A stretch of 60,862 nt of DNA. It comes from an uncultured virus (IMG/VR IMGVR_UViG_3300010352_002076) (taxonomy: Duplodnaviria; Heunggongvirae; Uroviricota; Caudoviricetes). A model generated the notes under the pieces. It was not told the origin of the DNA. It did no database searches and worked only from the letters and a program-made list of their open reading frames with translations. Shown one piece after another: positions 1,198-32,866 of this stretch (its first letter is position 1; each line of letters starts with the position of its first letter). The DNA is taken from IMG/VR virus record IMGVR_UViG_3300010352_002076; one strand, given 5' to 3'. The translations under genes were made by a program, and so were the position numbers.

Positions 1198-1231
1198 TAT
1201 GCTACCCTCTCTTCGGGGATAGCCCCGAAAG

Positions 1232-1882
1232 TTATGAAGTGTTTACAGGCCGCAAAAGCTCAGGTGGACGCTCACCTTTATAGTACCGGGTGTAGACCGT
1301 CCTGTCCTTGAGCCCATGACGCCTAGCCAACTCAGCTAGCGCCACTTTCTCACCGTTTACCAGTAGGAACACGCAGTGCCGTGAGTTGTTGTTCTGCGTG
1401 AGTGCTGTCGCCCAACGACAGTTATCAGGGGTATATCCGCCATCATTGTCTCTGCGATCCAGCGACATGCCTGGCGGACACTTTCCCATGTCAGCTAAGA
1501 AGGCCTCAAACGAGTTCCACCGCTCACATGAAGTTATACCGCGGTCACAGTAATGTTCTGGGTTGCTGCTGCGCCCGCTCACCCGGCTCCGCATCGCTTG
1601 CCAGATTCTATATTCACGCGCATAAATAGATGGATGCTTGCGACTGGTGACCCCGTGTTTCCGCGGACCAACCCGGTTGACGTACTGAGCCGAGAAGCAG
1701 GAGAAACACCGATTACGCTTCCCCGTGTTCAGATGGGTCTGCTTGATCTCAATCGTCTTTCCGCAGTCGCACGTACACAGCACATAGGTGCCGGACTTCC
1801 CCGGTAGAAAATGGGGAAGTCCGGTAACCGTGAAGGAACCAAACCGGGTTCCAACTGGAATACTGAGCGGCTTTTGTGCCAT
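1232..1882 (-). CDS. HNH homing endonuclease-like protein
   Basis: CTCDCG N-terminal motif; YRIWQAMRSR...RGITSCERWNSFEAFLADMG...SLDRRDNDGGYTPDNCRWAT is typical of phage HNH endonucleases; composition more AT-rich than its neighbours. Confidence 0.8.
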   Translation of the reverse strand: MAQKPLSIPVGTRFGSFTVTGLPHFLPGKSGTYVLCTCDCGKTIEIKQTHLNTGKRNRCFSCFSAQYVNRVGPRKHGVTSRKHPSIYAREYRIWQAMRSRVSGRSSNPEHYCDRGITSCERWNSFEAFLADMGKCPPGMSLDRRDNDGGYTPDNCRWATALTQNNNSRHCVFLLVNGEKVALAELARRHGLKDRTVYTRYYKGERPPELLRPVNTS

Positions 1883-2035
1883 CTAGCGCGCCCTCTTAGA
1901 CGCCGGTTGGCTCTCGCCATGCTTCTCGTCAATGATGCGCCGCACGATCTCTGACAGTTTGATACCCTTCGCAGCGGCGTCAGCCTTGAGCCGGTTGTGC
2001 ATCGTTTCAGGAAGGTATAGCTGCGTGCGGATCAT
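1883..2035 (-). CDS. ribbon-helix-helix (CopG/Arc-like) DNA-binding protein, 50 aa
   Basis: Below ORF-track cutoff: MIRTQLYLPETMHNRLKADAAAKGIKLSEIVRRIIDEK...; TAG abuts the HNH ATG. Confidence 0.7.
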   Translation of the reverse strand: MIRTQLYLPETMHNRLKADAAAKGIKLSEIVRRIIDEKHGESQPASKRAR

Positions 2036-20820: not shown

Positions 20821-20976
20821 TCCCTGAAACGGGGTCCCTAAGGGAATATTCTCCCACCACGAAAAACTGTTTAACGAGTAAACATCTTCTTCTCCTGATA
20901 GAGAATACCCTAAGGACCCCCATTTCAGGGAGTGTATCGTTTGGACCCATGTTTCTAGGTACCCATTTCAGGGAGT
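20821..20976. repeat. imperfect ~31-33 bp inverted repeat around an AT-rich spacer plus a 15-bp direct repeat
   Basis: TCCCTGAAACGGGGTCCCTAAGGGAATATTCTC (20821-53) versus GAGAATACCCTAAGGACCCCCATTTCAGGGA (20901-31); CCCATTTCAGGGAGT at 20919 and 20962. Confidence 0.8.
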
Positions 20977-27872: not shown

Positions 27873-28373
27873 TCAGAGCTCAAACGATAGTCGAAGCCAG
27901 GCCCCCAGCGAGGAGGTCATGGGATAGTCGGGATGCCCCGGTGGATGAGCGTTTGCCCGGTAGTCGCGCTGCGGGGCGTAGAACCCCTCGAGCGTGACGG
28001 GGCCCCAGCCGACACCGGCATGTGGCAACCAGGCCAGGCTGTCCACTGCGCTGCCGTGGAGGTAGCCGAACGCTAGGGTCCCTTCGACGTGGAACCCATC
28101 GAGGTCGCCAAGGACCACCTTGGGGCCGCCGGCGAAGACAGCGCTGGGTTCCCCGAAGGAATCCCGATACGCCGCCGTGACCACCTTGGCACCGACATGG
28201 CACCAGGTCCCACGTAGCACCCGGGTCAGCCCGACACCGAGTCCCGGGTTCCACTGCTCATAGGCAGAGGCATGCCCGGGATGATACGATGTCCCGAACA
28301 GGTAGACATCGACGGTGTCGACGTCCTCGACGCCCCCGAGAAGGGCGGCAACAAACAGCAGAAACAGAACCAT
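27873..28373 (-). CDS. PagP-like outer-membrane beta-barrel protein
   Basis: Signal peptide; YLFGTSYH...YEQWNPGLGVG...AYRDSFGE resembles the PagP WH / NE-PWG-G / FKDS motifs; alternating beta strands; AAGGAGG RBS. Confidence 0.55.
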   Translation of the reverse strand: MVLFLLFVAALLGGVEDVDTVDVYLFGTSYHPGHASAYEQWNPGLGVGLTRVLRGTWCHVGAKVVTAAYRDSFGEPSAVFAGGPKVVLGDLDGFHVEGTLAFGYLHGSAVDSLAWLPHAGVGWGPVTLEGFYAPQRDYRANAHPPGHPDYPMTSSLGAWLRLSFEL

Positions 28374-28430
28374 TGATAGCCTCCTTTCAGGGCATGGAGA
28401 CCCCCTGGCGGGGGTCCCGGGTTATGGGGT

Positions 28431-28492
28431 TGGGGGCACCTCCAGGGGTCGAACCTGGCCCTGTGCTTATTCACAGGTCTCCGAGGGGTGCC
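28431..28492 (-). ncRNA. D-armless tRNA-like element ending in CCA
   Basis: GGCACCC-CTCGGAGA-CCTGTG/AATAAG/CACAGG-G-CCAGG/TTCGACC/CCTGG-AGGTGCC-C-CCA. Confidence 0.6.
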
Positions 28493-28499
28493 ATAGCTA

Positions 28500-28574
28500 C
28501 GGGAATCCTGAACCGAAGTTCAGGATTCCCGAGGATGAGATTTGTATGCAGCGTGAGCTACATATTCCTCTCAT
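28500..28574 (-). ncRNA. two hairpins upstream of the tRNA-like element (one with a cUUCGg loop)
   Basis: Perfect 14-bp stem 28500-28531 with TTCG loop on the minus strand; ATGAGA-GGAA-TATGTAGC/TCAC/GCTGCATA-CAAA-TCTCAT at 28535-74. Confidence 0.55.
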
Positions 28575-28606
28575 TATAATATACGCTATTTTACCCATAT
28601 ATTCAC
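28573..28606. promoter_or_regulatory. AT-rich patch with -10-like hexamers
   Basis: Palindromic ATTATAAT at 28573-80 (TATAAT on both strands); TAAAAT on minus at 28588-93; no TTGACA partner. Confidence 0.45.
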
Positions 28607-28716
28607 CTGTTTTGGGACCCCCTCCCAGGGGGTCCAGCGTGCTGAAACTCCCCCTAGGGGGTTTCCAGGGCGCCTCTTCAACTTCAGAGTTGAATACCCC
28701 CCTCCCCGGGGCCCCC

Positions 28717-31194
28717 CTAGGCCTGGTTCCCGGCGTAGTGCGAGGCGGCCGCGTTCCAGACCGCTTCCGGGATGCCCCATTCGCCGCCCCGATTCAGGGT
28801 CAGGAACCGGGCCGCTACGAGCTGCCTGGCCAGGACCTCGAGGTCAGCCTTGGGGGTCAGGGGGTGTGCCAGCGCGGCCCGGACCTCGGCGACCTGCAGG
28901 ATCACGAGGTCGTCCCGCTTTGCGGGGTGCAGGGTGCCCCGCTCCTGTGCCCACTGCAGCGTGAGCAGCAGGGTGAATCCAGCGTTGCCGGCGTGATTCA
29001 CGGACTTTCCCAGTTCCCGGGCCGCGACGTCGAAGACATCCCCGGCGATGCCCCGGGGCACCAGGGCGGCCCGGAGTCGGCGAGCGATGTCACCGTAGAT
29101 GTTCTCGGCGTCGAGGCGGATCTCCTGAGGTCCCGGGGCCCAGAGCAGGTCCCGCAGCATCAGGAACACGAACCGGATCGTGGGGCCCCAGGAGAAGTCC
29201 ACGGCGTCCAGGCAGAGCCAGTTCTTGTGGAGCCGAAGGATCCGGTGGCTCCCGGGGTCCGCGGACATCAGGACGTGCATCGGGACCCCGGAGAGGAACG
29301 CCTCGGCGAGGCCGTCGTCGGTCCAGATCACCGGGGTCGGCACCGGGCTCAGGGCGTCGCGCTCCAGGCGGTCGGGCCGGGGATCCCGGACCACGGGGAC
29401 CCGAAGCGCCGACGCTACGGTCTCCACGACGTGTGGCGCGGCGCGCACGGCGAGCCCGTACCCCGGGAGCCCGGCCTGGGTCCGGAGCAGGTTCCCCATC
29501 AGAGCCAGCAGGATCTGGCAGGCCTGGGGATCCTGGATGACGCCCCACTCCTCGGGGCACAGCGGGGCCGGTCGCGGCAGCATGGGTCCGCCCATGGTGG
29601 CCTGCTCGGTTCCCGTGATCCCATCGGCTCGAACCACGAAGTACGGCATCACCAAGGCGCGGCCGCTATCGCTCCAGCCGTAGCTGGCGCCCTGGACGAT
29701 GCGGCGGGGCTCCTGAAACCCTGACGCAATCCTAAGAAGTCGGGAGCGCCACGCCGAGTTCACCATGGGGACCCCGGCACCTGGTCGGGACATCACGGTG
29801 TCCTCGAGCCAGTTCCAGGTGTTCCGACGGATCTCGTCGTAGCTGCACTCGAAGGGCACGGACTGCCGGCGGAACCGGGTGTAGCCACGCGCCGTGGTGG
29901 CGCTCCCCGAGATCAAGATCTCGGTGATCTGGAACGTAGCATCCGTGACCAGGGTGTCCCCGCAGAACCAGCCCTCGTCACGCTCCGTGACCACCTTGCC
30001 GTCGACATCCACGGTCTTGATGTGGGTACCCCGCTCGAAGATCCGACTCAGCAGCGTGGCATCCTCACCGTTCAGGGCCTGGAAGCACCGGCTCTGCCCA
30101 ACCGGAGACAGCGAAAACTCCGCAAAGATCCGCTTGGCTTCACCGGGCTTCCGGGACAGCAGGAACCTGGCGTAGGCCTCGTGGGATCCCCGGGCTCGAT
30201 TCTTCAGGTTAATCAGGGTGGTCCGAGACGCGGCGCCAACGATGCTCCGGGGGGCCAGCGTCTGCGTCGGCGTGAACCCGAGGTCGTCATAGTTCGCGAA
30301 GTAGATGATGCGCGCCGAGGGGACCTCAGTGGCACGGAAGAACCACTCCGGGCTCAGCGTGGCGGTGAAGAAGATCGGAGCGGATTCCCCGATGCAGCCC
30401 AGGTCGACGTGACGTCGATGAGCCGGCGCAACGAACGGCGTTTCGAGGTCGCCGTCGAAGAGCTGCCGGACGTTGTAGCGCAGCGCGACCAGGGCGGAGT
30501 CCGCGACGACGACCTCCGGGGTACCCACGGGGACCCCGTGGGCGAAGCCAACGCCGTTGTCTGCAGAGCTCACCACCGGCAGGAACATCTCGATCGGGGT
30601 GACGCCTTGATCCGTGGGCTCGTGCTGCCGGATCAAGTGGAACCCCGTGATCCTCCAACCCACATAGGTCGGGATCGCCAGCGCCATGCTGTGCCCCCAC
30701 CACGCCTTGGCCTCCTTGGCCTCCTTGGGTAGATCGAAGTCGAACTCCTCGAAGCGTTTCGGGTGCAGGGCGCCGACGTAGCGGGATGCTTTCTTCGCGG
30801 TCTCCATGCCGTACCAGGCCAGGTTGTTCACGAGGAGGGCACGGGGCACCGTGGTCTGGGATGCCATGGTCTCCTGAGCCCCGGCCCAGATCAGCTGGAG
30901 CGTAGCCTGCTCCTGGGCGTCCGAGGTGTAAAAGGTCTCCTCGAGATCCGAGCTGAACTCGACGAGCCCGTGGAACTTGAGCTCAGTGATAGCCTCCGCC
31001 AGCGCGATCCGCTTGGCCGAGGCGTACAAGTGGATAATGTCCCCGACGAAGGCACACTTCCGGCATGCGATGGACGACGAGCCACGAATGGACAGCGCAG
31101 ACTCGGTGCCGCACACCGGGCAGCGCTGTTCCGTCGCGGCCTCATAGCCTCGCAGGTCCACCCGCTGCAAGATTTCCTTCAGGGAGCTTCTCAT
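28717..31194 (-). CDS. large primase-like protein (N-terminal Zn finger; catalytic motifs not evident)
   Basis: CPVC...CRKC followed by FVGDIIHLY...AEAITEL, like a DnaG Zn-binding domain; start 31194 or 31209. Confidence 0.55.
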   Translation of the reverse strand: MRSSLKEILQRVDLRGYEAATEQRCPVCGTESALSIRGSSSIACRKCAFVGDIIHLYASAKRIALAEAITELKFHGLVEFSSDLEETFYTSDAQEQATLQLIWAGAQETMASQTTVPRALLVNNLAWYGMETAKKASRYVGALHPKRFEEFDFDLPKEAKEAKAWWGHSMALAIPTYVGWRITGFHLIRQHEPTDQGVTPIEMFLPVVSSADNGVGFAHGVPVGTPEVVVADSALVALRYNVRQLFDGDLETPFVAPAHRRHVDLGCIGESAPIFFTATLSPEWFFRATEVPSARIIYFANYDDLGFTPTQTLAPRSIVGAASRTTLINLKNRARGSHEAYARFLLSRKPGEAKRIFAEFSLSPVGQSRCFQALNGEDATLLSRIFERGTHIKTVDVDGKVVTERDEGWFCGDTLVTDATFQITEILISGSATTARGYTRFRRQSVPFECSYDEIRRNTWNWLEDTVMSRPGAGVPMVNSAWRSRLLRIASGFQEPRRIVQGASYGWSDSGRALVMPYFVVRADGITGTEQATMGGPMLPRPAPLCPEEWGVIQDPQACQILLALMGNLLRTQAGLPGYGLAVRAAPHVVETVASALRVPVVRDPRPDRLERDALSPVPTPVIWTDDGLAEAFLSGVPMHVLMSADPGSHRILRLHKNWLCLDAVDFSWGPTIRFVFLMLRDLLWAPGPQEIRLDAENIYGDIARRLRAALVPRGIAGDVFDVAARELGKSVNHAGNAGFTLLLTLQWAQERGTLHPAKRDDLVILQVAEVRAALAHPLTPKADLEVLARQLVAARFLTLNRGGEWGIPEAVWNAAASHYAGNQA

Positions 31195-32866
31195 GAACGG
31201 TTCGGTCACCTTGGTTCAGCTTCACGAGCTCATCGGCATCGCCGAGAAGCCACCCTACGTGAAGGCGGCTTCCGAACAAGTCCAGCGGAGCGCCCCGGAA
31301 CCCCGGCACTGCGCCGACGGGCTCGGGTGCCAGTACCCCTGTGACTCCAAGGAGCAGACCTGGCTCAGCGCCGTGAAGCTGGCCGCCGCCGGCGGCGACG
31401 CCGAGATCCAGGCCGGGATCGAGAAGTTCGCCCGGTTCTGGGGCATCACCGCGGACGTTCAGACCGCTCAGAAGAAGATCGCAGCCGAGCTCGCGGTCCC
31501 GGCCCTCGAGGACCGCGACTTCGCCTTGGTGCAGGAGCACCGCGGCGAGAAGATCCGGAAGTTCGCCGCCTTCGACAGCAACAGCACCGTGAAGGCTGCG
31601 TCCGCGTTCTACAAGAACCGGCACCGCTACCCCATGGCATGGCGCAAGCAGGCCGCCGTCGAGCTGATCCGCCGCAGCGAGGCCCACCTGGCCCAGCTGC
31701 CGCCCGTCGTCAACGACTACCTCCACAAGGCCGCCGGCTTCGGGTTCCCCAGCGTAGCGGCCATCGAGGATGCCATTCTGGCGCGCACGGATCGCTGCCA
31801 GGGCCACCTGAGGGGGGCAGGGGTCAAGCTCGCCGAGGCGCTGGGCGCCATCGCGGCCCACCCCGATCTCCGCTACAACAACGACCTCGTCAGGGATGCC
31901 CTCGAGGTCATGGACCACTTCGACCAGAGCACCAAGCTGGCCGCTCACTACGGCGACGATGTCTCGCTCCCTGAGGAGATCCTGGATCTGACGCAGCCCA
32001 TGCTGCAGAAAGCCGCGGGCTACGTCGCGGGGCAGTGCAAGCTGCAGAACGGCATCAACGTCAACGTCCACGATCTCACCAAGGAGGCCCTGGCTGCAGT
32101 CAGCGACGAGCTCGCCGAGATGCCGCTGGCCAAGCTCGCCGCGGTGCTCCCGACGCTGCCGGCCCCGGATGCCAACGTGCTCTGCCGTGCCTCCGGGATC
32201 TCGACGAAGCAGGCTGCCGCCGGCGCCGACCTCCTCGATGTGATCCGGAAGCGCGCCGGGGCCGCGATGCCGCCCCCGCCGGCGCCGCCGGCGGCCGCAG
32301 CGGCGCCGCAGGACCCCGGCCTGCCCCCGATGCCGCCCGGCCAGGATCCCGCGGCAGCCGCGGCCCCGCAGCCCGGCCCCGGTGCCGTTCCTGGCGCCCC
32401 GGCCCCGGGCCAGCCGCCGCCGGCCCCTGGAGCCCCCGGCGCCGCCCCGGCGGCGCCGCCGCTCGAGAAGGTCCCCGGCCAGGCCCCGGCGCCCGGCGCC
32501 GCCCCGGCCGGTCAGAGCGCCCTGGCGGCGGGTGCCCCGCCGAGCCCGCAGGCTGTGCCCGGCGAAGTCGCTGGCGGACCGCTGGACGCCGGCGGCAACG
32601 CTCCGGAACCCGGCGCCATCTTCGACGCCCCGCTCTTCGATCCGGGCTCCGTGGAGCCCCCGAAGAGCCTGGACCCCACCAAGGACCCCGCGATGCAGGC
32701 GGCGGCCCCCGGTTCCGACGCCACGGCCTCCCTGGCCGACGCCGGCGGCGGCGCTGGGGATGTCCTCGGCGGCGCAGGCCCCGGTGCCGGTGCCCTGGCC
32801 CAGGAACAGCCGCCCCGCCAGGGCGTCACCAAGGACCAGGTCTCCGGACTGCCCCGAGGCGTCTAA
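31193..32866 (+). CDS. hypothetical protein (557 aa) with Pro/Ala/Gly-rich C-terminal tail
   Basis: AGGGAG RBS, strong codon bias. Confidence 0.8.
   Translation: MNGSVTLVQLHELIGIAEKPPYVKAASEQVQRSAPEPRHCADGLGCQYPCDSKEQTWLSAVKLAAAGGDAEIQAGIEKFARFWGITADVQTAQKKIAAELAVPALEDRDFALVQEHRGEKIRKFAAFDSNSTVKAASAFYKNRHRYPMAWRKQAAVELIRRSEAHLAQLPPVVNDYLHKAAGFGFPSVAAIEDAILARTDRCQGHLRGAGVKLAEALGAIAAHPDLRYNNDLVRDALEVMDHFDQSTKLAAHYGDDVSLPEEILDLTQPMLQKAAGYVAGQCKLQNGINVNVHDLTKEALAAVSDELAEMPLAKLAAVLPTLPAPDANVLCRASGISTKQAAAGADLLDVIRKRAGAAMPPPPAPPAAAAAPQDPGLPPMPPGQDPAAAAAPQPGPGAVPGAPAPGQPPPAPGAPGAAPAAPPLEKVPGQAPAPGAAPAGQSALAAGAPPSPQAVPGEVAGGPLDAGGNAPEPGAIFDAPLFDPGSVEPPKSLDPTKDPAMQAAAPGSDATASLADAGGGAGDVLGGAGPGAGALAQEQPPRQGVTKDQVSGLPRGV

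What the first reader, a model, noticed from the sequence alone, without database searches (positions are those of the whole stretch)
28431..28580. D-armless, CCA-ended tRNA mimic with His-like marks at the 3' end of a structured RNA
Seen on the minus strand: -10-like hexamers, a bulged hairpin, a perfect 14-bp cUUCGg hairpin, and then a 62-nt unit. The unit has an acceptor stem (6 bp plus C-A), an 8-nt D-replacement loop, a 6-bp stem, a canonical T-arm (CCAGG-TTCGACC-CCTGG), discriminator C and encoded CCA. It contains CT-GTG-AA, a His anticodon-loop-like 7-mer, but the GTG is buried in the stem. Known: C73 and GUG are bacterial tRNA-His identity elements; tmRNA also lacks a D stem but has Ala identity, absent here. 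Inference: not a decoding tRNA. Candidates are a decoy for anticodon nucleases or tRNA-sensing defence, an RNase P/Z processing tag that matures the upstream sRNA and the PagP-like mRNA, or a synthetase-binding mimic.
Basis: partly seen in the sequence, partly recalled or inferred. Interest (0 to 1): 0.8.

Follow-up and report, generated by a model that had tools for sequence, protein, structure and literature searches.

The report
Phage-encoded armless tRNA look-alike RNA
A large phage carries a 62-base RNA element shaped like a tRNA without its D arm or a usable anticodon loop; it most likely marks where host tRNA-processing enzymes cut a structured transcript, but nothing shows it is expressed or conserved.

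Summary
- a 6-bp acceptor stem plus a C·A mismatch;
- an 8-nt D-replacement loop;
- a 6-bp stem with a 6-nt loop;
- a canonical T arm (GGTTCGACCCC);
- discriminator C and an encoded CCA.

All 17 pairs are Watson-Crick. Upstream lie the most AT-rich island of the window (with TATAAT), a bulged hairpin and a perfect 14-bp cUUCGg hairpin. A 9-bp hairpin and a strong ribosome-binding site follow. The 186-nt unit folds into exactly these four modules (z = -6.7).

ARAGORN calls no tRNA or tmRNA. Rfam gives nothing at gathering score; the only near-match is mascRNA/menRNA, a tRNA-like processing product.

The window belongs to a large phage (at least about 140 kb) that has its own multisubunit RNA polymerase and no tRNA genes. 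The upstream gene looks like a primase.

The 3' half matches no tRNA in 185,579 reference genomes, so it is not an attP remnant. Only one of three bacterial His identity marks is present.

No diverged relative could be fetched, so there is no covariation test, and expression is not shown.

Best reading (about 0.4): a tRNA-derived, non-decoding mimic that acts as an RNase P / 3'-end processing signal, like plant mitochondrial t-elements. Rivals are a decayed tRNA gene, a trans-acting decoy, and a replication origin.

The parts
28717..31209 (-). Upstream gene, 830 aa, probably a DNA primase (zinc ribbon plus Toprim/DUF927-like)
   Evidence: GC3-based ORF call. No Pfam, NCBIfam or PDB sequence hit. 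The protein Atlas is a lead only: the ten best named clusters all carry Zn_ribbon_DnaG, Toprim or DUF927, score 0.93. Relatives P0002-P0006 share 60-83% identity.
28615..28661 (-). G5/C5 palindromic hairpins after the upstream gene's stop codon; terminator-like but without a U tract
   Evidence: CCCCCTAGGGGG at 28650-28661 and GGACCCCCT/AGGGGGTCC at 28615-28635 (pair I12). 3 of the 4 CCCCC-N(0-8)-GGGGG sites of the window lie in this intergenic region.
28540..28618 (-). AT-rich island with TATATTATAAT (TATAAT at 28578-28573); promoter-like
   Evidence: Lowest 40-nt GC (0.25) among the 3 AT-rich islands of the window. TATATTAT occurs exactly twice in about 140 kb of this phage. The sigma-70 consensus scan found no full promoter. 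Multisubunit-RNAP jumbo phages use roughly 10-nt AT-rich early promoter motifs near -10 (passages of PMC7598289).
28535..28574 (-). Bulged hairpin 1: outer stem AUGAGA/UCUCAU, inner 8-bp stem with loop UCAC
   Evidence: Minimum-energy fold and centroid of the 186-nt unit; inverted repeat I7.
28500..28531 (-). Perfect 14-bp hairpin with a cUUCGg tetraloop
   Evidence: pair I4 (100% complementary, 4 nt between the arms).
28431..28492 (-). 62-nt tRNA-like unit: acceptor stem, D-replacement loop, 6-bp stem, T arm, C73, CCA
   Evidence: Rfam mascRNA-menRNA at 24.7 bits, below its gathering score of 42.5. Own covariance model R1 scores 98.7 bits on itself and 19.1 bits on the next best site.
28397..28418 (-). 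9-bp G/C hairpin (GGGACCCCC-GCCA-GGGGGUCUC) between CCA and the ribosome-binding site
   Evidence: It is one of only two GACCCCC...GGGGGTC sites in the window; the other lies upstream of the unit.
28380..28386 (-). Shine-Dalgarno sequence AAGGAGG of the downstream gene
   Evidence: Read; 6 nt separate it from the ATG at 28373-28371.
27873..28373 (-). Downstream gene, 166 aa, PagP-like
   Evidence: phrog_3600 (PagP lipid A acylation protein), E = 6.6e-9. No Pfam or NCBIfam hit.

Best explanation
The element is a tRNA-derived structural mimic that does not decode. It sits inside a compact, highly structured transcription unit of a large phage.

Proposed mechanism (every step is inferred):
1. Transcription starts at the AT-rich TATATTATAAT island and runs through two hairpins, the tRNA-like unit and a G/C hairpin into the PagP-like gene.
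2. Host tRNA-maturation enzymes recognise the acceptor/T-arm stack (7 + 5 = 12 layers), the canonical T loop and the encoded CCA.
3. RNase P cuts between U28493 and G28492.
4. An endonuclease or exonucleases trim just after the CCA at 28431.

This would give three products:
- a hairpin-rich 5' RNA;
- a stable 62-nt CCA-ended mini-tRNA;
- a PagP-like mRNA whose new 5' end is protected by the 9-bp hairpin.

In other words, it would work like a plant mitochondrial t-element or like mascRNA.
For: Shown:
- The tRNA-like fold is the minimum-energy and centroid structure, both alone and in the 186-nt unit. All 17 pairs are Watson-Crick.
- The T arm fits the tRNA psi-arm motif GGTTCRANYCC that was used to find t-elements (passages of PMC1920247).
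- The strict descriptor never appeared in 3000 simulated windows.
- The only Rfam family that approaches it is mascRNA/menRNA, with a full-length alignment of 24.7 bits, E = 0.0015 on 76 nt.
- The element lies in a 343-nt intergenic region, 57 nt upstream of a start codon with a strong ribosome-binding site, after the most AT-rich island of the window.
- The phage has its own multisubunit RNA polymerase (Rpb2_6, E = 6.4e-38). For such phages, AT-rich -10 motifs are the early promoters (passages of PMC7598289).
- The loop is UUCG on the minus strand only. That favours an RNA-level reading of the 14-bp palindrome on this strand.

Inferred or recalled:
- The D-replacement loop holds a GG that could contact the T loop, as G18-G19 do in tRNA.
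- The -1 base is U, which I recall (from no call) is the base bacterial RNase P prefers.
- In E. coli, RNase E cuts 1-3 nt after an encoded CCA (abstract of PMC2190699, in the listing).
Against: - There is no evidence of a transcript, of processing, or of conservation.
- The element is a singleton. There is no second copy in about 140 kb of the phage and no convincing match in 61 genomes around G001 (best 25.3 bits, E = 0.026).
- The energy of the 62-mer alone is not exceptional (z = -1.69).
- In the 346-nt context the minimum-energy fold does not form the acceptor stem.
- The discriminator is C, whereas the RNase P 3' motif is written RCCA (abstract of PMC12710915, in the listing).
- The sigma-70 scan found no promoter.
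- The descriptors for the chance test were written after seeing the element.
Confidence: 0.4

Rival explanations
1. It is a decayed remnant of a phage tRNA gene with no present function. A former tRNA lost its D arm and anticodon loop through small deletions.
For: - From the loop onward the element resembles a real phage tRNA. R1 aligns positions 16-51 to a tRNA-Ile(GAU) in L029 (CCUG---AUAAGCGaCAGGUCCAGGUUCGACCCCUGG, 21.4 bits). The T arm was identical by the design of that search.
- 13 of the 16 viral loci with this T arm plus N8-CCA are ordinary tRNAs: 8 Gln, 2 Asn, 2 Ile, 1 Arg.
- A D-arm-like GUAGCUCA lies about 70 nt upstream and GUAGCU lies right before G1. MAFFT aligned that GUAGCU with tRNA D arms.
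- The element is a singleton with no relatives.
Against: - A decaying gene should collect mismatches, yet all 17 pairs are Watson-Crick.
- The 6-bp middle stem is a new pairing, not the old anticodon stem.
- The unit sits between purpose-built-looking hairpins and after a promoter-like island.
- The phage has no other tRNA genes from which a cluster could have decayed.
Confidence: 0.2
2. It is a trans-acting tRNA mimic. The released CCA-ended mini-tRNA binds a protein that recognises the acceptor/T-arm half of tRNA. The partner could be a defence effector that attacks tRNA 3' ends or acceptor stems, a synthetase, EF-Tu or the CCA-adding enzyme. The mimic would act as a decoy or sponge.
For: - The acceptor/T-arm half is intact and CCA is encoded, while the decoding half is minimal.
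- Defence systems that act on the tRNA 3' end or acceptor stem exist. toxSAS FaRel2 pyrophosphorylates the CCA end and inspects the acceptor stem (abstract start of PMC11559606, listing). Cas12a3 cleaves tRNA tails (title and abstract start of PMC12851939, listing).
- Phages are known to counter tRNA-targeting defences with their own tRNAs (titles and abstract starts of PMC10264068, PMC11464382 and PMC11555353, listing).
- The phage carries no ordinary tRNA.
Against: - No partner was identified.
- The known phage countermeasures in those listings are full decoding tRNAs, not mimics.
- A stoichiometric decoy must be made in large amounts, and expression is unknown.
- The host is unknown.
Confidence: 0.15
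3. It is a DNA-level element: the phage replication origin next to the primase gene. The AT-rich island would be the unwinding element and the palindromes would be protein-binding sites or cruciforms. The tRNA shape would be incidental or a relic.
For: - The upstream gene is primase-like (lead only).
- This is the most AT-rich 80 bp of the window.
- It is flanked by four G5/C5 palindromes and a perfect 32-bp palindrome.
Against: - Cumulative GC skew does not turn here and the gene strand does not switch.
- The centre of the 32-bp palindrome is the non-palindromic UUCG, which is meaningful only as RNA on the minus strand.
- An origin does not explain a canonical T arm, a matching acceptor stem and CCA.
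Confidence: 0.1
4. It is an attP-type fragment: the 3' part of a host tRNA kept as an integration site.
For: An encoded T arm, 3' acceptor strand and CCA are what attP cores often hold (recalled general knowledge).
Against: - There were 0 exact matches of the 21-nt T-arm/acceptor stretch in one genome each of 185,579 species.
- 0 of 31 genomes around G001 match within 3 mismatches.
- No integrase family was found among the ORFs scanned: 8 + 41 window ORFs and 52 ORFs of G001:C1 with Pfam, and 34 window ORFs with PHROGs.
- The element has both acceptor strands.
- The phage has its own multisubunit RNA polymerase; from recall, such jumbo phages are usually lytic.
Confidence: 0.02

Closest known systems
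Plant mitochondrial t-elements
   Same: Both are non-canonical tRNA-like folds with a perfectly kept psi arm (GGTTCRANYCC). Both lie just upstream or downstream of mRNAs. The t-elements are thought to direct RNase P and RNase Z cuts that create mRNA ends, and some receive C/A additions (abstract and passages of PMC1920247).
   Different: t-elements belong to an organelle, not a phage. Their CCA is added rather than encoded. There is no sequence homology. Their processing has been mapped experimentally; here it has not.
mascRNA / menRNA (Rfam RF01684)
   Same: This is the only Rfam model that aligns end to end (24.7 bits). Both are small tRNA-like RNAs with a reduced D region, a short middle stem and a canonical T arm. 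mascRNA is cut from a longer transcript by tRNA enzymes (abstract starts of PMC8457004 and PMC9777231 in the listing).
   Different: The score is below the gathering threshold of 42.5. mascRNA is a vertebrate nuclear lncRNA product, so the likeness is one of shape and not of descent.
D-armless mitochondrial tRNAs of nematodes and arachnids
   Same: Both lack a D arm, have a short replacement loop and keep the T arm (abstract start of bioRxiv 10.64898/2026.06.12.731814, listing).
   Different: Those tRNAs keep a normal anticodon arm and decode. Here the loop has 6 nt without U33. ARAGORN's mitochondrial modes make no call.
tmRNA tRNA-like domain
   Same: Both have an acceptor stem plus T arm without a D stem, and a CCA end.
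   Different: tmRNA has G3·U70 alanine identity; here the pair is C3-G70. tmRNA carries a tag reading frame and pseudoknots between the two halves; here there is only an 18-nt hairpin. ARAGORN finds no tmRNA.
Phage-encoded tRNAs used against tRNA-targeting defences
   Same: Both are phage-borne and tRNA-shaped. The theme of countering tRNA attack is shared (listing).
   Different: Those are full, chargeable, decoding tRNAs. This element has no anticodon loop.

Membership tests
Canonical tRNA (ARAGORN; Rfam RF00005) | Cloverleaf with a D stem-loop | tested here: not met
   Only 8 unpaired nt lie between the acceptor stem and the middle stem.
Canonical tRNA (ARAGORN; Rfam RF00005) | 5-bp anticodon stem with a 7-nt loop and U33 | tested here: not met
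   The stem has 6 bp and the loop is AAUAAG (6 nt). Opening the closing pair gives an 8-nt loop, GAAUAAGC, still without U33.
Canonical tRNA (ARAGORN; Rfam RF00005) | Called by tRNA detectors | tested here: not met
   ARAGORN finds 0 genes in the window. In a script it finds 0 under 5 of 6 option sets; at -ps80 it makes two other low-grade calls, neither of them the unit. The Rfam tRNA model is not listed even at E <= 10.
Canonical tRNA (ARAGORN; Rfam RF00005) | T arm (5 bp, loop UUCRANN) and a 7-layer acceptor stem with NCCA | tested here: met
   CCAGG-UUCGACC-CCUGG; 6 Watson-Crick pairs plus C·A; C-CCA.
tmRNA | G3·U70 pair, and a tag reading frame with pseudoknots between the 5' and 3' halves | tested here: not met
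   C3-G70; 18-nt hairpin only. No tmRNA call and no Rfam tmRNA match.
Bacterial tRNA-His identity set | G-1, C73, and the anticodon G34-U35-G36 (PMC9976931) | tested here: not met
   C73 is present. The -1 base is U28493. GUG is paired inside the stem. That is 1 of 3. Charging itself cannot be tested here.
mascRNA-menRNA (RF01684) | Score at or above the Rfam gathering threshold (42.5 bits) | tested here: not met
   24.7 bits.
t-element-like processing signal (a functional class, not a homologous family) | tRNA-like fold with the psi-arm motif GGTTCRANYCC next to an mRNA end | tested here: met
   GGTTCGACCCC; the element ends 57 nt before the ATG of the PagP-like gene (criterion from PMC1920247).
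t-element-like processing signal (a functional class, not a homologous family) | RNA ends that coincide with the element's ends; cleavage by RNase P and a 3' endonuclease | not testable with these tools
   Only contigs of public runs could be laid, and contigs cannot show RNA ends.
Bacterial Y RNA (YrlA) | A Ro60-binding stem enclosing a tRNA-like domain, with a Ro60 (TROVE) gene nearby | tested here: not met
   No Rfam match. No TROVE hit among the 101 ORFs scanned with Pfam (8 + 41 window ORFs and 52 ORFs of G001:C1). The element ends in CCA and is not enclosed by a stem.
attP / tRNA gene fragment | Identity to the 3' part of a host tRNA, and an integrase | tested here: not met
   (no match). 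No integrase family. The true host is unknown, so the host test is incomplete.

The most novel reading that the evidence does not exclude
A lytic jumbo-type phage with no tRNA genes makes, from a strong early promoter, a minimal CCA-ended tRNA acceptor mimic. The mimic works in trans as a decoy for host factors or immune effectors that read the acceptor/T-arm half or the CCA tail of tRNA. It would be the first non-decoding tRNA mimic used as a phage counter-defence.
Probability: 0.12. Interest if true: 0.85.

Novelty: new variant of a known kind. Interest (0 to 1): 0.55.

Why it matters
tRNA-like processing signals are known from plant mitochondria (t-elements), mammalian lncRNAs (mascRNA) and, from recall, a herpesvirus. 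In four literature searches no listed title or abstract start described a phage or bacterial D-armless, CCA-encoding, non-decoding tRNA mimic; those listings are a small sample of the hits.

If the element is real, it would show that a phage which transcribes with its own polymerase borrows the host's tRNA-maturation enzymes to cut and stabilise its transcripts. Alternatively, it would show that such a phage fields a tRNA decoy.

It would also give a compact 62-nt natural substrate for studying what RNase P and CCA-end-binding factors need at minimum.

If it is only a relic, it is a neat example of how a tRNA gene decays.

Tried and rejected
Relatives for covariation
- The upstream protein has five diverged relatives (P0002-P0006, 60-83% identity), but their DNA could not be reached.
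- Viral-contig scans with the single protein, its alignment and the PagP-like protein found nothing.
- The genome-contig scan found nothing.
- The one metagenome scan returned only L013, which is identical to the window over all 381 bases compared.
- tblastn against 50,697 phage records found no match for the 830-aa protein.
- The terminase found only matches of about 22-24% identity there and one 5.5-kb viral contig at 48% (L014). L014 gave no R1 match.

Public sequencing runs
- 24 runs were listed and 4 were laid. All are contigs.
- No contig covered 28430-28532 in any of the four runs. The tool warns that a hole proves nothing.
- X3, a strain about 2% diverged, covers 28109-28375 and 28533-29092 only.
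- One 151-nt contig from an RNA library (X23, depth 2) spans 28279-28429, so it begins 2 nt after the CCA. Contigs cannot show RNA ends and DNA may be present in that library. I draw nothing from it.

Other copies and look-alikes
- The second-best R1 hit (961-1021, 19.1 bits) lies inside a coding frame that ends at the helicase start codon. Its GGUUCGA is codon-driven. Rejected.
- The blastn hits of the 62-mer in cultured phages had E = 2-5. The two that I fetched (L041, L042) are not homologous.
- Three of the 16 viral loci with the same T arm have no tRNA call (L028, L034, L039). Their folds do not share this architecture.

AT-rich motifs
- Those at 1605-1631 lie inside a lower-GC ORF, not in a second non-coding unit.

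Tools that did not answer
- Structure prediction was not accepting jobs.

Full report
**What is there**

On the minus strand, the 343-nt gap between an 830-aa gene (28717-31209) and a 166-aa PagP-like gene (27873-28373) holds, in order:
- G5/C5 palindromic hairpins (28650-28661 and 28615-28635);
- an AT-rich island (28540-28618) with TATATTATAAT;
- a bulged hairpin (28574-28535);
- a perfect 14-bp hairpin with a UUCG loop closed by C-G (28531-28500);
- a 7-nt linker, UAGCUAU;
- a 62-nt tRNA-shaped unit (28492-28431);
- 12 C-rich nucleotides;
- a 9-bp G/C hairpin (28418-28397);
- AAGGAGG (28386-28380) and the ATG (28373).

The 62-mer consists of:
- acceptor stem GGCACC/GGUGCC plus a C·A mismatch;
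- an unpaired CUCGGAGA;
- stem CCUGUG/CACAGG with loop AAUAAG, then one G;
- T arm CCAGG-UUCGACC-CCUGG;
- discriminator C and CCA.

All 17 pairs are Watson-Crick.

**Is it more than chance?**

- The 62-mer's minimum-energy fold and centroid are the described junction, but the energy alone is modest (z = -1.69; 12 of 200 shuffles fold as well).
- The 186-nt unit folds into exactly four modules, with the same structure as minimum and centroid (z = -6.74; 0 of 200 shuffles).
- In a 346-nt context, long-range G/C pairings compete with the acceptor stem. The centroid keeps only the middle and T hairpins.
- A relaxed tRNA-3'-module descriptor hit once in the window plus 80 kb of the same phage, against 11 hits in 400 simulated windows.
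- The strict all-Watson-Crick version hit once, against 0 in 3000 simulated windows.
- Both descriptors were written after seeing the element, so these figures are indicative only.

I conclude that the shape is tRNA-derived or tRNA-mimicking and not random.

**What it is not**

- *Not a called tRNA or tmRNA.* ARAGORN calls nothing in the window or in 99 kb of the adjoining phage contig. Its mitochondrial and pseudogene modes also call nothing on the region. Only at an 80% threshold does it give two unrelated low-grade calls.
- *Not a member of any Rfam family.* Rfam gives nothing at gathering score. At E <= 10 neither tRNA nor tmRNA is listed. The best match is mascRNA-menRNA, aligned end to end at 24.7 bits, well below its threshold of 42.5.
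- *Not tRNA-His-like in any useful sense.* Bacterial His identity needs G-1, C73 and GUG (PMC9976931, table and passages). Only C73 is met.
- *Not tmRNA.* C3-G70 rules out alanine identity, and there is no tag region.
- *Not an attP remnant.* The 21-nt T-arm/acceptor stretch has no exact match in one genome each of 185,579 species. The 24-mer has none within 3 mismatches in 31 genomes around G001 and none in IMG/VR.

**Context**

- The window is phage DNA: large terminase (phrog_675, E = 3.3e-37), baseplate J (E = 9e-18) and an SbcC-like protein.
- Window 33729-60862 is 100% identical to one end of contig C1 (106,193 nt) of the held genome G001, and the contig stops there. The phage is therefore at least about 140 kb.
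- C1 encodes beta/beta'-like multisubunit RNA polymerase pieces (Rpb2_6, E = 6.4e-38; Rpb1 domains; one piece carries a LAGLIDADG insert).
- Such jumbo phages use AT-rich motifs of about 10 nt near -10 as early promoters (PMC7598289, passages).
- The island here is the most AT-rich of the window.
- Its TATATTAT occurs only twice in about 140 kb. The other copy lies just upstream of an endonuclease VII/HTH gene.
- The sigma-70 scan found no full promoter.
- The upstream protein has no Pfam, NCBIfam or PDB sequence match. The protein Atlas places it among zinc-ribbon-DnaG/Toprim/DUF927 proteins, which is a lead and not a test.
- No tRNA, integrase, Ro60, reverse transcriptase or CCA-adding enzyme family appeared among the ORFs scanned.

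**Origin**

- Sixteen IMG/VR loci share the exact T arm followed by N8-CCA. Thirteen are ordinary tRNAs: 8 Gln, 2 Asn, 2 Ile and 1 Arg. Three have no call and fold differently.
- My single-sequence covariance model R1 aligns positions 16-51 of the element to a phage tRNA-Ile(GAU), from its anticodon loop through the T arm.
- A D-arm-like GUAGCUCA lies about 70 nt upstream, and GUAGCU lies directly before G1.

This points to descent from a tRNA gene. It does not say whether the present form is kept by selection. The perfect pairing, and a middle stem that is not the old anticodon stem, lean towards selection.

**Mechanism**

The most likely reading is a cis-acting processing signal. The element offers what RNase P reads:
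- a 12-layer acceptor/T stack;
- a canonical T loop, with a GG in the replacement loop available for the elbow contact (inference);
- U at -1 (recalled as the preferred base);
- G1-C72;
- a 3' CCA, although it is preceded by C rather than a purine.

Cleavage at its two ends would separate a hairpin-rich 5' RNA, a stable mini-tRNA, and a PagP-like mRNA that starts with a protective hairpin and a strong ribosome-binding site. Plant mitochondrial t-elements do this (PMC1920247, abstract and passages). So does mascRNA (abstract starts in the listing). I give this reading about 0.4.

The rivals are:
- a functionless relic of a tRNA gene (0.2);
- a trans-acting decoy for acceptor-end-binding proteins (0.15), which is compatible with processing;
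- a replication origin beside the primase gene (0.1);
- an attP fragment (0.02);
- the remainder goes to chance and to readings not thought of.

**Limits**

- No diverged copy of the element could be examined.
- The only relative fetched (L013) is identical to the window.
- Laid contigs of four public runs leave 28430-28532 uncovered, which proves nothing.
- Expression, RNA ends, charging and any partner are untested.
- The host is unknown. G001 may only have binned the phage contig.

**Verdict**

This is a real, well-formed, tRNA-derived mimic in a plausible RNA unit of a novel jumbo-type phage. It is an orphan and its function is unproven. It is best filed as a new variant of the known class of tRNA-like processing elements. 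Interest is moderate to good and depends on the covariation and RNA-end tests listed under the next steps.

Noticed in passing
L010:14065-18216 and L011:46-2736 (G001 contig C1, same phage, outside the window): The phage encodes beta/beta'-like multisubunit RNA polymerase pieces. One piece carries a LAGLIDADG endonuclease insert, and a neighbouring ORF has a weak intein-splicing hit.
   Followed up: partly
window 28717-31209 (-): The 830-aa protein has a CxxC...CxxC zinc-ribbon start. The protein Atlas places it among DnaG-zinc-ribbon/Toprim/DUF927 primase-like proteins, but it has no Pfam, NCBIfam or PDB sequence match.
   Followed up: partly
window 1198-1890 (-): A lower-GC reading frame lies between the 83-aa ORF and the SbcC-like gene. 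By eye it looks like a homing-endonuclease-type insert. My GC3 filter had missed it, and it holds the AT-rich motifs at 1605-1631. It was not scanned against any family library.
   Followed up: no
L011:14635-14709 (G001:C1): This is the second exact TATATTAT site. It is flanked by a direct repeat, TTGAGTATTG, just upstream of an endonuclease VII/HTH gene on the opposite strand. It may be a shared promoter motif.
   Followed up: partly
window 28574-28497 (-): A 25-codon frame (ATG within TATAATG, ending at the TAG just before the tRNA-like unit) runs through both leader hairpins. I saw no Shine-Dalgarno sequence, so it is probably not translated.
   Followed up: no
window 28402-28418 and 28432-28448: The 3' acceptor/T-stem strand is 76% complementary to the downstream hairpin region (pair I6). 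An alternative pairing that undoes the tRNA shape is therefore possible.
   Followed up: no
window 20845-20909: A second AT-rich island lies in the gap between two minus-strand genes. It shares no obvious motif with the one at 28.5 kb.
   Followed up: no
L042:332-401 (Mycobacterium phage Nanosmite, MW578836.1): An unannotated tRNA-like stretch ending in CCA lies between the annotated tRNA-Trp and tRNA-Asn genes. ARAGORN does not call it.
   Followed up: no
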